DNA of 64,000 nt from Tagaea sp. (GTDB lineage: Bacteria; Pseudomonadota; Alphaproteobacteria; CACIAM-22H2): NCBI GenBank assembly GCA_965279525.1, contig CBDIIB010000005.1, positions 576,001 through 640,000 on the forward strand, read 5' to 3'. A model generated the notes under the pieces. The model was not told the origin of the DNA. It searched no databases and worked only from the letters and a program-made list of their open reading frames with translations. The translations under genes were made by a program, and so were the position numbers. Of this stretch, positions 40,654 through 43,427 are shown piece after piece (positions within the stretch are counted from its first letter, which is position 1; each line of letters starts with the position of its first letter).

Positions 40654-41721
40654 ATGCAGAGCCGCACCCTCGCCATCCTCGCCTTGTCGGCCGCCATCGT
40701 CGGCGGGGCCGCCGTGATCGCCACCGGCGGGCGCAACGACGCGTCCGACGCCGATCCCGCGGGCAAGCTCGTGTTCCCCAACCTGCCCGCGCGCATCGAC
40801 GGCGTGGCGCGCATCGAGATCGAGCGCGGCGGCGAGAAGTTCGAGCTGGTGCGCGACGCCGCCGGCCACTGGACGATGCCGGCCAAAGCGGGCTATCCGG
40901 CCGATTTCCAGCTTGTCCGCCGGCTGGCGCTCGACATGGCGAACATGCGCATCCTCGAGGCGCGCACCGCGAGCAAGGCGCTGCATGCCGACATCGATCT
41001 CGACGGTTCGGGCAAGGACCAGAAGGCCGTGCGCGTGGCGCTGTCCGGCGCGCAGACCGAGCAGTTCGCCAGCGTGCTCGTGGGGCGCACGCGCTTCGGC
41101 CGGCAGGGCAATGCCGGCGACGGCACGTTCGTGCGCCGCGAGGGCGAGGACCAGGTTTGGTTCGTCCAGGGACGTGTGGGCGTGGAACGCGAACAGACCA
41201 AATGGCTTGAAAAGCGCATCGTCGACGTGGTGCGCGAGCGCGTGGCCAAGGCCGTCGTCGTGACGGCCGACGGGGCACGCCTCGAAATATCGCGCGCCAA
41301 GCACGACCAGCAGGATTTCGATCTGGCGGCGGTCCCCGCCGACAAGAAGATCAAGACGGCGTTCGACGTGAACCTCATTGCATCCGCCATCGAAGCCCTC
41401 GACCTCGAGGACGTGCGCAAGGCCGACGGCCTCGCCTTCCTCGGCCAGCGCGACTTCGCCGAATTCACGACGTTCGACGGCCTTGCCGTGCGCGTCGAAT
41501 TCGCCAAGGACGGCGCCGACATCTGGGCGCGCTTCACCGCACGCCACGCGGCTCCGGCCACGCCGGTCGAAGGCGACAAGCTGAAGAAGCCCGACGAGGT
41601 TGCCGCCGAAGCCGCACAGATCGCCAAGCGCACCCACGGCTGGGCCTACCGCGTGCCGGCCTACAAGGCCGAGCAGATGAGCCGGAAGATCGCCGACCTC
41701 GTCGAGGACAAGGGCGCCTGA
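40654..41721 (+). CDS. DUF4340 domain protein
   Basis: N-terminal TM, GYPAD motif; fourth gene of a Gld-like operon. Confidence 0.85.
   Translation: MQSRTLAILALSAAIVGGAAVIATGGRNDASDADPAGKLVFPNLPARIDGVARIEIERGGEKFELVRDAAGHWTMPAKAGYPADFQLVRRLALDMANMRILEARTASKALHADIDLDGSGKDQKAVRVALSGAQTEQFASVLVGRTRFGRQGNAGDGTFVRREGEDQVWFVQGRVGVEREQTKWLEKRIVDVVRERVAKAVVVTADGARLEISRAKHDQQDFDLAAVPADKKIKTAFDVNLIASAIEALDLEDVRKADGLAFLGQRDFAEFTTFDGLAVRVEFAKDGADIWARFTARHAAPATPVEGDKLKKPDEVAAEAAQIAKRTHGWAYRVPAYKAEQMSRKIADLVEDKGA
41707..41721 (+). repeat. Left direct repeat (att-like) GACAAGGGCGCCTGA
   Basis: 14/15 identical to 42860-42874; it is the last four codons plus stop of the DUF4340 gene. Confidence 0.8.
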
Positions 41722-41751
41722 ACGAGGTCAGGCTCCAGCTCGAATCCCTTA

Positions 41752-41764
41752 CAATACATTGATT
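41752..41764 (-). promoter_or_regulatory. IHF-like site
   Basis: AATCAATGTATTG matches WATCAANNNNTTR exactly. Confidence 0.5.
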
Positions 41765-41939
41765 TAGTTTATATTTTTACGCTCGCCGGCATATCAAGTG
41801 AGCCGCGCGCCACCCCCATTCGTGGTATTCCAATTTTGAGATAGCCCCTACCCATTGTGGTGCGCTAGCGTGTTAGGTATATGGCCGAATTGCAATTTTT
41901 GATTCGCAATCGCTGTGCAGGTCAGATTAGAATGTTGGA

Positions 41940-42446
41940 ATGCACTGCGAGACCCTCGCCAAAAACGCGCCTTCGGGCGCGATCCCGGTTGCTATCGAAG
42001 AGCTCTTCGAGAAGCTGCGCCTTGCGCGTGTCAATCGGGAAAAGGCCGAAGCGACGGTCGAAGAAGAACAGGCCAATGCCATCCAGCTCGAGCGTCTGAT
42101 CGCTGGACTGGTCGCTCTTCTCCCGGCGGCCGATCAATCCAAATACCGCGCTAGGCTGAGTCCGGCGGCACCGTCGAAGGGCGGCATTGTCTTCGACAAC
42201 GTCGTCAGCCTTTTCCGCGATGCTCCGAATCAACAGTGGACGCCGACGAGCGTTCAGGCGGCGCTTGAAAAAAAGGGCGTCAGTGCCGACACAAAAGCAA
42301 TCGCAAATATCCTCGCCTATTTGGCGCGGTCCGGAAAACTGGTGCGAGCTGCTCGCGGACATTACGTCTCGCAAGGCTGGATGATCGTCACGAGCGACGA
42401 AATCGAAGCCGATGAGATGAGCCGCGAAAAGTTCGCCGAACTGTAA
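41940..42446 (+). CDS. Hypothetical protein: N-terminal coiled coil plus C-terminal winged-helix-like domain
   Basis: Amphipathic helix LRLARVNREKAEATVEEEQANAIQLERLI; WTPTSVQAAL...IANILAYLARSGKLVRAARGHY wHTH-like pattern. Confidence 0.75.
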   Translation: MHCETLAKNAPSGAIPVAIEELFEKLRLARVNREKAEATVEEEQANAIQLERLIAGLVALLPAADQSKYRARLSPAAPSKGGIVFDNVVSLFRDAPNQQWTPTSVQAALEKKGVSADTKAIANILAYLARSGKLVRAARGHYVSQGWMIVTSDEIEADEMSREKFAEL

Positions 42447-42451
42447 GGAGG

Positions 42452-42483
42452 AAAAGAAAACGCCGCCGGTTGGATCGGCGGCG
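42452..42483 (-). terminator. Intrinsic terminator-like hairpin (minus strand)
   Basis: CGCCGCCGGT-TGG-ATCGGCGGCG stem, followed on the minus strand by TTTTCTTTT. Confidence 0.6.
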
Positions 42484-42491
42484 TCAGGAAA

Positions 42492-42577
42492 ACCAGGGTG
42501 GCGAAAATGGTAGACGCAACAGAGTTGGATTCTGTGGGTCCGTGGTGGCCGTGTGGGTTCGAGTCCCGCCCCTGGTA
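42492..42577 (+). tRNA. Irregular type II tRNA: Leu-type body with UGG (Pro) anticodon
   Basis: ACCAGGG/CCCTGGT acceptor, A73; D arm GCG-AAAATGGTAGA-CGC; anticodon arm ACAGA-GTTGGAT-TCTGT; variable stem; T arm GTGGG-TTCGAGT-CCCGC; CCA not encoded. Confidence 0.85.
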
Positions 42578-42602
42578 CATATGTTGAGCGTTCGGTTCTT
42601 GT

Positions 42603-42705
42603 GCCCCTGTGGTGCAATTGGAAAGACACGGCGGTGGCTACACCGCCGTCCCTAGAAGCTGGCCGGCTTCGAAGGACTGTGCAGGTTCGAATCCTGTCAG
42701 GGGCA
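42603..42705 (+). tRNA. Irregular tRNA-like RNA: Leu-type body, no canonical anticodon loop, very long variable arm
   Basis: GCCCCTG/CAGGGGC acceptor, A73; D arm GTG-CAATTGGAAAGA-CAC; GCGGTG-GCTA-CACCGC arm; variable arm GTCC..GAAGCT-GGCC-GGCTTC..GGAC; T arm GCAGG-TTCGAAT-CCTGT. Confidence 0.8.
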
Positions 42706-42761
42706 CCCTTAGCAGTCAACACTAAACTCTTGGATTCATTGTCGAATAGAAATTCGGACTC

Positions 42762-42774
42762 TTTCAATCACTTA
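42762..42774 (+). promoter_or_regulatory. IHF-like site
   Basis: TTTCAATCACTTA, one mismatch to WATCAANNNNTTR. Confidence 0.4.
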
Positions 42775-42859
42775 GCTAGCGCCTAGGCCTGCGTCTGCTG
42801 CGCGTTCTCCAACGTACTGCTTCCAAAGGCCTTCGACTCGACAAGAATCCCGTAGCCAA

Positions 42860-42874
42860 GACAAGGGCGCGTGA
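42860..42874 (+). repeat. Right direct repeat (att-like) GACAAGGGCGCGTGA
   Basis: 14/15 identical to 41707-41721; also reads D-K-G-A-stop. Confidence 0.8.
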
Positions 42875-42878
42875 GCCT

Positions 42879-43322
42879 CTAGCCGACGACGTTCCCGCGC
42901 ACCCATTTGCGCACGATCGTGTCGTCGGACGGCCAGTGCATCGGCTGCACGCCGGTCAGCTGCGCCAGCACGCATTTCCACGTGCCGCCCTCGCGCACAT
43001 AGGTGTCGGTGTAGCGGGTCATGCCGGTCACTTCGGTGCCCTCGCGCACGCGCACCCATTTGGTGGCCGAACTCACCAGTGCCATGTCGCCGAAGATCTC
43101 GATCCGCTCGTCGCGATAGTCCCAGTAGACGATCACGGCCGGATCGAAGCCGGTCGCCCATTCGACCAGATAGGCCGCGCGGTCGGTGCGCGAGCCGTCG
43201 GAATTGATGCAGGTGAAACGCGGATGGATGATCGCGTCGTGCGACGGCACGTCGTTGGTGACGAAGTTCTCGATGAACTTCGCGTTCAGCGCGCGCAGGG
43301 CGGCAAGGGTGTCGGCGGTCAT
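42879..43322 (-). CDS. Nuclear transport factor 2 (DUF4440) family protein
   Basis: IEIFGDMALV, TRYTDTYVREGGTWKCVLAQ. Confidence 0.85.
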   Translation of the reverse strand: MTADTLAALRALNAKFIENFVTNDVPSHDAIIHPRFTCINSDGSRTDRAAYLVEWATGFDPAVIVYWDYRDERIEIFGDMALVSSATKWVRVREGTEVTGMTRYTDTYVREGGTWKCVLAQLTGVQPMHWPSDDTIVRKWVRGNVVG

Positions 43323-43333
43323 GTCGCAGATTA

Positions 43334-43427
43334 CCCTCACCCCGGCCCTCTCCCGCAAGCGGGAGAGGGGGATGACAAAACGCGGTGGGTCCCCTCTCCC
43401 GCTAGCGGGAGAGGGTTAGGGTGAGGG
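43334..43427. repeat. REP-like inverted doublet (CCCTCACCC...CCCTCTCCCGCAAGCGGGAGAGGG family)
   Basis: Two palindromic units in inverted orientation separated by ~20 bp. Confidence 0.85.

What the first reader, a model, noticed from the sequence alone, without database searches (positions are those of the whole stretch)
41707..42874. Candidate new system: integrated islet with a wHTH gene and two irregular Leu-body tRNAs
Seen: a ~1.15 kb AT-richer segment holding only a 168-aa coiled-coil/wHTH gene, a hairpin and two tandem tRNA-like genes, all on +. Acceptor, D and T arms are fully paired while both anticodon arms are abnormal in the same way (G at 32 able to pair with a pyrimidine at 38). 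That pattern fits selection for tRNA shape rather than random decay. Known: bacterial LeuRS largely ignores the anticodon; irregular tRNAs (allo-tRNAs) occur in mobile DNA but have 8/4 or 9/3 folds, whereas these are 7/5. Inference: a mobile regulator-plus-RNA module acting by inducible mistranslation, as decoy/antitoxin RNAs, in phage defence, or as non-ribosomal Leu donors.
Basis: partly seen in the sequence, partly recalled or inferred. Interest (0 to 1): 0.9.

Follow-up and report, generated by a model that had tools for sequence, protein, structure and literature searches.

The report
Mobile regulator gene with odd tRNAs
A 1.15-kb piece of foreign DNA carries a small DNA-binding regulator gene followed by two structurally conserved but non-standard leucine-type tRNA genes, and the same pairing recurs in many related bacteria, pointing to an undescribed use of tRNA look-alikes.

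Summary
Window 41722-42859 is a precise insertion of about 1.15 kb, flanked by a 15-nt direct repeat (41707-41721 and 42860-42874). Same-genus relatives have the empty site.

The insert holds:
- a 168-aa gene, with a long helix plus a winged helix;
- a GC-rich hairpin;
- two class-II tRNA-like genes, scoring 47 and 33.8 bits against the Rfam tRNA model (threshold 29).

X1 has a Leu-type body with loop GUUGGAU. That gives a UGG anticodon and G32, which none of the genome's 45 ordinary tRNAs has. It has no encoded CCA. X2 has a 7-bp stem with a 4-nt loop and an arm of about 30 nt, so it cannot decode.

The ORF belongs to an unnamed alphaproteobacterial family. In 25 of 57 other loci, one or two irregular tRNA genes follow it on the same strand, in 24 of them 40-72 nt after the stop. 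The same was seen in 0 of 110 control loci. The X1 and X2 types recur with compensatory base changes. Acceptor and T arms stay intact while anticodon arms vary.

The function is untested. I favour an autorepressed operon that makes tRNA mimics acting through their body. Regulated Pro-to-Leu mistranslation is the main rival. The closest precedent is the irregular tRNA polycistrons of Mukai et al. 2017.

The parts
41707..41721 (.). Left copy of the 15-nt direct repeat (GACAAGGGCGCCTGA). It is also the last codons and stop of the DUF4340 gene.
   Evidence: family D8; relatives have a single copy at the empty site
41722..41939 (+). AT-richer leader of the islet, holding the promoter-like region of the ORF. 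TTCGCA lies at 41903-41908 and TTAGAAT at 41927-41933, ending 7 nt before the ATG. This corresponds to the family motif GATTCGAC ... TAAGAAT-GTCAG-ATG.
   Evidence: The generic scan found a different sigma-70-like site at 41748-41775.
41940..42446 (+). 168-aa gene with an N-terminal long helix and a C-terminal winged helix. It belongs to an unnamed family of proteins of about 165-180 aa.
   Evidence: Only weak AbiEi wHTH similarity.
42460..42484 (.). GC-rich hairpin between the ORF and the first tRNA-like gene. It is preceded by an A-run, so it reads as an intrinsic terminator only on the minus strand.
   Evidence: An equivalent hairpin follows nearly every family ORF.
42492..42577 (+). X1: a class-II, Leu-type tRNA-like gene. 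Anticodon loop GUUGGAU (UGG, G32, A37, U38), A73, no encoded CCA.
   Evidence: Homologues L119_1 and L209_1 have the same or nearly the same loop (GUUGGAU, GUUGGGU) with covarying stems.
42603..42705 (+). X2: a 103-nt tRNA-like gene. It has a Leu-like D arm, a 7-bp stem with a 4-nt loop in place of an anticodon arm, a branched variable arm of about 30 nt, A73, followed by CCC.
   Evidence: Homologues are L031_2, L192_2 and L209_2 (and one in L119), with 7 of 32 pairs changed on both sides.
42706..42790 (.). AT-rich stretch after X2 with motifs shared by four loci (GTCAA .. TTGATT .. TCAATSACTTA). No stable RNA fold. It may be a protein-binding or recombination site.
42860..42874 (.). Right copy of the 15-nt direct repeat (GACAAGGGCGCGTGA). 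The islet ends here, 4 nt before the stop of the convergent DUF4440 gene.

Best explanation
The segment is a horizontally acquired mini-element of about 1.15 kb with no recombinase of its own. It forms one transcription unit:
- a conserved promoter whose -10 element sits just before the start codon, giving a near-leaderless mRNA;
- a coiled-coil plus winged-helix protein that most likely represses its own promoter as a dimer;
- a hairpin that does not terminate on this strand;
- two tRNA-shaped RNAs, released from the 3' end of the transcript by RNase P and 3' trimming, then completed by the CCA-adding enzyme.

Both RNAs keep the parts of a tRNA that enzymes recognise: the acceptor/T minihelix, a Leu-type D arm, A73 and a long variable arm. 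They have lost ordinary decoding features. I therefore read them as tRNA mimics that act through their body. They would probably be bound, and possibly leucylated, by LeuRS and other tRNA-handling proteins. Their output would be set by the regulator. The most likely setting is a genetic conflict, with the RNA acting as a decoy or substitute for tRNA-targeting enzymes, or as a harmful tRNA held in check.

Shown: the insertion, the anatomy, the recurrence of the module, and the structural conservation of the RNAs.
Inferred: co-transcription, autorepression, processing, charging, and the cellular role.
For: Insertion:
- It is precise, with empty sites in relatives.
- No integrase or transposase ORF lies in the islet.

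Protein family:
- The family is real: 177 representatives at E<=1e-3, of which 55 at E<=1e-10.
- All ten homologues looked up are either named 'hypothetical protein' or carry no name.

Linkage to tRNA-like genes:
- 6 of 17 genome loci and 19 of 40 metagenome loci have same-strand tRNA-like genes after the stop, 40-72 nt away in 24 and 143 nt away in L187.
- 0 of 110 non-family loci drawn by the same pattern do.
- A class-II tRNA-like gene followed by an X2-type gene occurs in 5 loci: own, L119, L209, L031 and L192.

Structural conservation of the RNAs:
- 11 of 25 pairs (X1 group, 5 sequences) and 7 of 32 pairs (X2, 4 sequences) show changes on both sides that keep the pair.
- In 39 linked RNAs the acceptor stem is 7/7 in 31 and 6/7 in 8, and the T stem is 5/5 in 37.
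- Anticodon arms are mispaired or carry loops of non-standard length in many of them.
- X2 loops differ in length among the 4 homologues.

Transcription unit:
- The 45-nt gap between the ORF stop and X1 is filled by the hairpin, leaving no room for a separate promoter.
- The hairpin has a U-tract only on the minus strand.

Autorepression:
- 22 of 55 family loci have CTGA-N12-19-TCAG in the 45 nt before the start codon. Shuffles gave a mean of 0.16 and a maximum of 1.

Maturation:
- The genome encodes a member of the CCA-adding enzyme family.

Precedent:
- Irregular tRNAs from soil metatranscriptomes were charged in vitro but not used in translation, and some related RNAs were toxic in E. coli (PMC5389517, section 16).
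Against: - No expression, processing or charging data exist for this locus. No RNA run was listed (see Tried and rejected).
- 26 of the 57 homologous loci with enough downstream sequence lack any tRNA-like gene. The protein therefore has a role independent of the RNAs.
- The own ORF's closest relative, L061, lacks them.
- The strict CTGA...TCAG operator palindrome is not present in this window's own promoter.
- X1 keeps a regular 7-nt loop. That loop is identical in L119_1 and one base different in L209_1, although the stems differ. This points to selection on the loop sequence and fits decoding as well as a body-only role.
- No tRNA-targeting toxin was identified as a counterpart. An AbiEii search of the genome (97% complete) found none.
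- How the islet moved is unexplained.
Confidence: 0.4

Rival explanations
1. Regulated mistranslation. X1 is charged with leucine, because LeuRS ignores the anticodon, and reads proline CCA/CCG codons. G32 and U38 attenuate decoding. The regulator sets the dose. X2 is an accessory or an inactive copy.
For: - X1 has a Leu-type D arm, A73 and a long variable arm resembling the genome's five tRNA-Leu genes.
- X1 has a regular 5-bp stem, a 7-nt loop and U33.
- The loop is GUUGGAU in own X1 and L119_1 and GUUGGGU in L209_1, with covarying stems.
- Other linked RNAs also combine a body of one identity with the anticodon of another. L174_1 has a Ser-like body, G73, an encoded CCA and a GUU (Asn) anticodon.
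- A review states that natural mistranslating tRNAs carry attenuating loop changes such as G33 or A33 (PMC11415595, passages). L192_1 has G33.
Against: - X2 and many linked RNAs cannot decode, because their loops are not 7 nt long or their anticodon stems are mispaired.
- The close homologues L031_1 and L192_1 share a body but have unrelated loops.
- Pro-to-Leu substitution at the very common CCG codon of a 66% GC genome would be highly damaging (inference).
Confidence: 0.25
2. Non-ribosomal amino-acid donors. X1 and X2 are leucylated and feed a tRNA-dependent transferase (for example an L/F-transferase, or cell-wall or lipid aminoacylation). They are kept off the ribosome by their defective anticodon arms.
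For: - Leu-type bodies with intact acceptor and T arms.
- Degenerate anticodon arms.
- The genome encodes an L/F-transferase.
Against: - No transferase gene is linked to the module in this islet or in the neighbouring genes examined.
- Aat is a housekeeping enzyme that uses ordinary Leu-tRNA (established knowledge).
- The linked RNAs in other loci have Thr-, Cys-, Ser- and Asn-like bodies, so no single donor chemistry fits them all.
Confidence: 0.1
3. A cis-acting processing or stability device. The tRNA shapes only recruit RNase P, so that the regulator's mRNA ends at the protective hairpin. The released RNAs have no function of their own.
For: - The acceptor and T arms, which form the RNase P substrate, are the best-kept parts.
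- The hairpin sits directly before the first tRNA-like gene in the tRNA-bearing loci.
Against: - Loci without tRNA-like genes have the hairpin alone.
- Two tandem RNAs, conserved D arms and a covarying 30-nt variable arm in X2 exceed what RNase P needs.
Confidence: 0.1
4. Decaying passenger tRNA genes, or footprints of integration at tRNA genes, with no present function.
For: - Genuine high-scoring tRNA genes flank several related islets: L174, L184, L197, L133 and L040.
- IS1595-family transposase genes lie next to the ORF in L042 and L070.
- There is no encoded CCA.
Against: - In this window both RNAs lie inside the inserted DNA, not in the host target.
- They are complete cloverleaves.
- They are not copies of the neighbouring genuine tRNA in L174 or L184.
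- Compensatory changes across all helices argue against decay.
Confidence: 0.1

Closest known systems
Polycistrons of irregular tRNAs (tRNA0/1/2) from acidobacterial soil metatranscriptomes (Mukai et al. 2017, PMC5389517; section 16 and passages read)
   Same: - Tandem non-canonical tRNA genes, including 7/5 forms.
- Mismatch between body identity and anticodon.
- An identity triplet shifted to positions 35-37. Here the Cys-like, U73 RNAs with loop CUUGCAC in L047_2 and L073_1 show the same shift.
- Location near toxin-antitoxin-like or transposon genes.
[quoted passage not shown]
   Different: - That work concerns a different phylum.
- The text I could read names no conserved upstream regulator family.
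- It features extra loops and G-1, which are not seen here.
- Its Figure 4A and the supplements, which show the gene neighbourhoods, were not available to me.
Allo-tRNAs (Mukai et al. 2017; Krahn et al. 2020, PMC7609411, passages read)
   Same: - Long variable arm.
- Highly diverse, non-cognate anticodons.
- Occurrence in accessory DNA.
- Suspected non-translational roles for part of them.
   Different: - Allo-tRNAs have 8/4 or 9/3 acceptor/T branches, a Sec-like D arm and mostly Ser identity (G73).
- X1 and X2 are 7/5, with a Leu-like D arm and A73.
tRNAProX / ProRSx mistranslating tRNAs of Streptomyces (PMC10404621; search listing and abstract only)
   Same: Naturally encoded bacterial tRNAs whose anticodon and amino-acid identity disagree.
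   Different: - As I recall, those come with a dedicated synthetase paralogue and are class-I Pro tRNAs of Actinobacteria.
- No synthetase gene is linked here.
AbiEi antitoxins of type IV toxin-antitoxin systems
   Same: The C-terminal winged helix gives repeated weak matches to AbiEi models. Autoregulation by a wHTH is plausible for both.
   Different: - All matches are below the cut-offs: Pfam 17.5 bits against 25, and NCBIfam at most 12.3 bits against 150 for two homologues (none for the ORF itself).
- Domain order differs. Here the wHTH is C-terminal, after a coiled coil.
- No AbiEii partner lies in the islet or in the genome.
tRNA-Other of Bacillus cereus (mentioned in PMC5389517; details recalled)
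   Same: A chromosomal tRNA-like RNA that is charged but serves regulation rather than decoding.
   Different: Unrelated sequence, host and gene context. Not mobile. No linked wHTH gene.
Phage tRNAs with altered anticodon loops that escape anticodon nucleases
   Same: tRNA genes on mobile DNA whose anticodon-loop changes matter in a genetic conflict.
   Different: - Those remain functional decoders and lie in phage tRNA arrays.
- This ORF family was not found in phage or plasmid records.
- Only one distant hit appeared in 2.9 million viral contigs.

Membership tests
Rfam tRNA (RF00005) | Score at or above the gathering threshold of 29 bits over the full model | tested here: met
   X1 scores 47 bits and X2 33.8 bits, both over model positions 1-71
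Canonical bacterial tRNA-Leu | Class-II body, A73 and a Leu-type D arm | tested here: met
   Aligned with the genome's five tRNA-Leu genes; cloverleaf
Canonical bacterial tRNA-Leu | Leu anticodon in a 7-nt loop with a pyrimidine at position 32 | tested here: not met
   X1 has UGG and G32. X2 has a 4-nt or 6-nt loop. 0 of 45 genomic tRNAs have G32.
Canonical bacterial tRNA-Leu | Encoded 3' CCA, as in the host's own tRNA genes | tested here: not met
   X1 is followed by CAT and X2 by CCC. 42 of 45 host tRNAs are called as ending in CCA.
Canonical bacterial tRNA-Leu | Aminoacylation by LeuRS | not testable with these tools
   Needs an in vitro charging assay or an acid-gel assay
Allo-tRNA | 8/4 or 9/3 acceptor/T-stem arrangement | tested here: not met
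   Both RNAs are 7/5
Allo-tRNA | Long variable arm and a non-cognate anticodon | tested here: met
Irregular tRNA polycistrons (Mukai 2017) | Two or more tandem non-canonical tRNA genes on one strand | tested here: met
   X1 and X2 are 25 nt apart on the + strand. Tandem pairs also occur in 13 other loci.
Irregular tRNA polycistrons (Mukai 2017) | Transcription as one polycistron | not testable with these tools
   No RNA run was listed for this sequence
AbiEi antitoxin (PF13338 / NF047376) | Score above the curated cut-off | tested here: not met
   Pfam 17.5 bits against 25 for the ORF; NCBIfam no match for the ORF and at most 12.3 bits against 150 for two homologues
AbiEi antitoxin (PF13338 / NF047376) | Adjacent AbiEii nucleotidyltransferase toxin | tested here: not met
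   None in the islet and none in the genome
Integrase-borne genomic island | Direct repeats at both ends and an empty site in relatives | tested here: met
Integrase-borne genomic island | Own integrase or transposase gene | tested here: not met
   The only credible ORF is the 168-aa gene

The most novel reading that the evidence does not exclude
Alphaproteobacteria carry a previously unrecognised family of tiny mobile modules. In each, an autorepressor controls one or two purpose-built tRNAs. The forms seen are:
- a Leu body with a Pro anticodon;
- a Ser body with an Asn anticodon;
- a Cys body with the GCA triplet shifted by one position;
- Thr tRNAs with a U55C T-loop or a 15-18-nt insertion in the D loop;
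- the non-decoding X2 form.

On this reading the RNAs are effectors. They either reprogramme specific codons on demand or serve as decoys against tRNA-directed toxins and nucleases. That would be a new class of RNA-based conflict system.
Probability: 0.3. Interest if true: 0.9.

Novelty: new variant of a known kind. Interest (0 to 1): 0.72.

Why it matters
Irregular tRNA genes on accessory DNA have been noted before, but without a recurrent genetic partner and without a tractable host. This work supplies three things:
- a conserved, unnamed regulator family linked to several distinct and structurally conserved classes of non-standard 7/5 tRNAs;
- a defined promoter/operator motif;
- a clean insertion with an empty-site control.

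Together these give a concrete genetic handle for asking what such tRNA look-alikes do, whether that is mistranslation, decoy, donor or signal. They also provide natural scaffolds of interest for tRNA engineering. If the RNAs turn out to be effectors in conflicts between mobile elements, phages and hosts, that would add an RNA-only payload type to known defence and addiction systems.

Tried and rejected
Searches that came back empty or weak:
- The search for homologous proteins (word-based) returned only the query itself. The exhaustive HMMER search was needed to find the family.
- A BLAST search with X2 over 401 class-level genomes gave only generic T-arm matches. That set includes the unpublished genome G076, on which no claim here rests.
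- The ORF family is rare in sampled genomes: 1 of 49 others in the order and 1 of 400 in the class.
- tblastn of the ORF against plasmid and phage records gave no match.
- The protein pattern in viral contigs gave one distant hit, L210, E=3.6e-13. The X2 pattern in viral contigs gave 0 hits.
- Foldseek against the PDB found only generic winged helices such as Rok, Fur, CRP, Z-alpha and SelB, with E>=9e-3.
- The protein atlas returned unnamed clusters only.
- The look-up of sequencing runs listed no RNA holder. Read laying was therefore not used, and expression remains untested.

Ideas rejected:
- That the tRNA-like genes are att duplicates of neighbouring genuine tRNAs. In L174 and L184 they are not copies.
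- That the module lies between IS1595 inverted repeats. Only one 14-nt pair at chance level was found.
- That ARAGORN's six other long 'tRNAs' in this genome are real. Rfam does not confirm them.
- That the stretch after X2 folds as an RNA. The z-score is 0.3 on both strands.

Not done or not available:
- Six literature searches found no description of this regulator-tRNA module. Supplements were closed, so the gene maps of Mukai et al. (Figure 4A, Supplementary Figure S6) could not be compared.


Full report
**What is there.**
- Between a DUF4340 gene (40654-41721, +) and a convergent DUF4440/SnoaL gene (42879-43358, -) lies a segment of lower GC. GC is 0.50-0.61 there, against about 0.63-0.76 in the flanks.
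- The segment is bounded by a 15-nt direct repeat, GACAAGGGCGC[C/G]TGA, at 41707-41721 and 42860-42874.
- In four same-genus genomes (L080, L081, L083, L084) the two flanking genes abut, with a single copy of the repeat.
- The islet DNA matched none of 20 same-genus genomes; six more distant relatives matched only about 70 nt of X1 at 74-75% identity.
- It is therefore a precise insertion of about 1,153 bp. It contains no integrase or transposase and occurs once in the genome.

**The gene.**
- ORF 41940-42446 encodes 168 aa.
- The AlphaFold model has pLDDT 83.5. It shows a 46-residue helix, a short helix and a winged helix.
- Structure search returns only generic winged helices.
- Sequence libraries give weak, sub-threshold AbiEi wHTH matches.
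- An exhaustive HMMER search found 177 cluster representatives of similar length at E<=1e-3.
- They align with a conserved C-terminal motif, RGGxVFxNVVxLF..W..VQxAL..G..AD.KAIxNVLxYLARxGRLxRVxRGxY.
- All ten looked up are 'hypothetical protein' or unnamed.

**The RNAs.**
- X1 (42492-42577) and X2 (42603-42705) both exceed Rfam's tRNA threshold, at 47 and 33.8 bits. They are the only irregular entries among the 47 tRNA matches in the genome.
- X1 is a 7/5 class-II cloverleaf whose D arm and A73 resemble the host's tRNA-Leu genes.
- X1 carries the loop GUUGGAU, which gives a UGG anticodon. Its G32 is seen in 0 of 45 ordinary tRNAs of this genome, and it has no encoded CCA.
- The genome has its own normal tRNA-Pro(UGG) elsewhere.
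- X2 has intact acceptor, D and T arms and a branched variable arm of about 30 nt. Where the anticodon arm should be, it has a 7-bp helix capped by GCUA.

- I back-translated the conserved wHTH motif into a degenerate pattern. It matches once in the window and in 0 of 100 shuffles.
- Scanning genome contigs gave 47 loci, of which hmmsearch confirmed 17 non-self family members, all Alphaproteobacteria.
- ARAGORN and Rfam found same-strand tRNA-like genes after the ORF stop in 6 of the 17 and 19 of the 40, 40-72 nt away in 24 loci and 143 nt away in L187.
- Six further loci hold fewer than 125 nt downstream. By eye, L040 and L118 show the first bases of such a gene at the contig end.
- 26 loci have none. 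L161 and L200 were checked with ARAGORN only.
- In 110 non-family loci drawn by the same pattern, no same-strand tRNA starts within 400 nt downstream.
- Three metagenome proteins are identical to others in the set (L178=L041, L197=L099, L157=L063), so the loci are not all independent.

**Kinds of linked RNAs**.
- The X1 type recurs in L119 and L209 with loops GUUGGAU and GUUGGGU and different, compensating stems.
- L031 and L192 have the same class-II body with unrelated loops, CUGCUAC and GGAUCAG.
- The X2 type recurs in L031, L192, L209 and L119, always after a class-II tRNA-like gene, and its loop length varies.
- 11 of 25 pairs (five sequences) and 7 of 32 pairs (four sequences) changed on both sides while keeping the pair.
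- Other loci carry:
  - Thr-like RNAs with a UCCGA T-loop (U55C);
  - Thr-UGU RNAs with a 15-18-nt insertion in the D loop;
  - Cys-like RNAs (U73) with GCA shifted by one position or with enlarged loops;
  - Asn-GUU-like RNAs;
  - a Ser-like RNA with a GUU anticodon.
- Over all 39 RNAs the acceptor stem is 7/7 in 31 and 6/7 in 8, and the T stem is 5/5 in 37. Many anticodon arms are mispaired or of abnormal loop length.

**Transcription unit.**
- Nearly every family ORF, with or without RNAs, is followed by a GC-rich hairpin preceded by an A-run.
- In the window this hairpin reads as a terminator only on the minus strand. It leaves no room for a separate promoter before X1.
- Upstream, the family shares GATTCGAC ... 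TAAGAAT-GTCAG-ATG.
- 22 of 55 loci have a CTGA-N12-19-TCAG palindrome in the 45 nt before the start codon, where the -10-like element lies. Shuffles gave a mean of 0.16 and a maximum of 1.
- The window's own copy is degenerate and does not match the strict pattern.
- I infer a near-leaderless, autorepressed operon whose 3' part is processed into the RNAs.
- The genome has a member of the CCA-adding enzyme family.

**Phylogeny and context.**
- The tree was built from 52 of 58 rows. Three exact duplicates were left out, as were three rows with fewer than 120 matched residues (L047, L123, L158).
- One clade, supported at 100/98, has RNAs in 18 of 23 rows, with 3 more truncated.
- Outside that clade, 5 of 29 rows have RNAs, including this window's gene. 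The sister of this window's gene, L061, has none.
- The class-II plus X2 pair sits with four separate ORF lineages. It has therefore been exchanged or lost repeatedly.
- Neighbouring genes vary:
  - IS1595-family transposase directly upstream in L042 and L070;
  - comM next to L041 and L063;
  - a SMODS cyclase near L035;
  - genuine tRNA genes beside L174, L184, L197, L133 and L040.
- L041 is a similar islet of about 1.1 kb, flanked by an 18-of-19-nt repeat at the comM 3' end.
- The linked RNAs are not copies of adjacent genuine tRNAs.

**Interpretation.**
- Shown: mobility of the islet, its anatomy, the recurrence of the module, and the structural conservation of the RNAs.
- Inferred: the function. 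The pattern is that the parts of a tRNA read by RNase P, the CCA-adding enzyme, synthetases and EF-Tu are kept, while anticodon arms are free to vary.
- That pattern points to RNAs that work through their body. I put 0.4 on an autorepressed operon producing tRNA mimics used in a conflict setting.
- I put 0.25 on regulated Pro-to-Leu mistranslation by X1, whose loop is the same or nearly the same in three lineages.
- The remaining rivals, each at 0.1, are non-ribosomal donors, a cis processing device, and functionless remnants.
- An AbiE-type pairing is unlikely here, because no AbiEii was found in the 97%-complete genome.

**Comparison with the literature.**
- The nearest precedent is Mukai et al. 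2017 (PMC5389517; section 16 and passages read).
- These lay near toxin-antitoxin or transposon genes. Some were charged but not used in translation.
- X1 and X2 fail the defining 8/4 or 9/3 feature of allo-tRNAs. They fit the looser 'irregular polycistron' description.
- Six literature searches found no account of a conserved regulator family linked to such RNAs.
- That paper's figures and supplements were not visible to me and could bear on this claim.
- I therefore rate the finding as a new variant of a known kind, of high interest to tRNA and mobile-element biologists, with its function still open.

Noticed in passing
window 42459-42495: The hairpin between the ORF and X1 has its U-tract only on the minus strand. 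It would stop read-through from the convergent DUF4440 gene after that transcript has crossed the antisense of X2 and X1. The same A-run plus hairpin layout follows most family ORFs.
   Followed up: partly
window 42706-42790; L031 5167-5250; L192 215-298 (-); L119 1336-1420: An AT-rich stretch after the X2-type gene shares the motifs GTCAA .. TTGATT .. TCAATSACTTA in four loci. It has no stable fold. It may be an operator or a recombination site.
   Followed up: partly
L041 1328-1347 and 2428-2448: A family islet of about 1.1 kb without tRNA-like genes is flanked by an 18-of-19-nt direct repeat at the 3' end of comM. This mirrors the 15-nt repeat in the window, although the target sequence is different.
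   Followed up: partly
L042 6273-7247 (-); L070 5775-6626 (-): IS1595-family transposase genes (zinc ribbon plus DDE) lie directly upstream of the family ORF on the same strand. The end of this upstream gene also aligns with the corresponding region of L056.
   Followed up: partly
L117 7967-8055; L138 753-841 (-); L152 962-1053; L042 5470-5559 (-); L161 9331-9419 (-); L184 853-940; L187 4629-4719 (-): A recurrent tRNA-Thr-like form, with UGU in six and UAG in L187. It has a normal anticodon loop but an insertion of about 15-18 nt in the D loop, and in six of the seven G73 followed by CCTT.
   Followed up: no
L063 3194-3267 (-); L128 464-537; L099 4458-4529 (-); L133 104-175 (-): Thr-like RNAs whose T-loop reads UCCGA instead of UUCGA (U55C). 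Some have a 6-nt anticodon loop (UUCGUA), and one has an AGU anticodon.
   Followed up: no
L035 2579-3607 (-): A SMODS-domain (CBASS-type cyclase) gene lies about 700 nt downstream of a family ORF that has no tRNA-like gene. This suggests a defence-island context in that genome.
   Followed up: no
G000:C5:749716-749811 and five other places in the genome: ARAGORN calls six further long 'tRNAs' with odd anticodons. Rfam does not confirm any at E<=0.01, so they are probably false positives of a GC-rich genome. The one at C5:749716 does have a TTCGAAT loop.
   Followed up: partly
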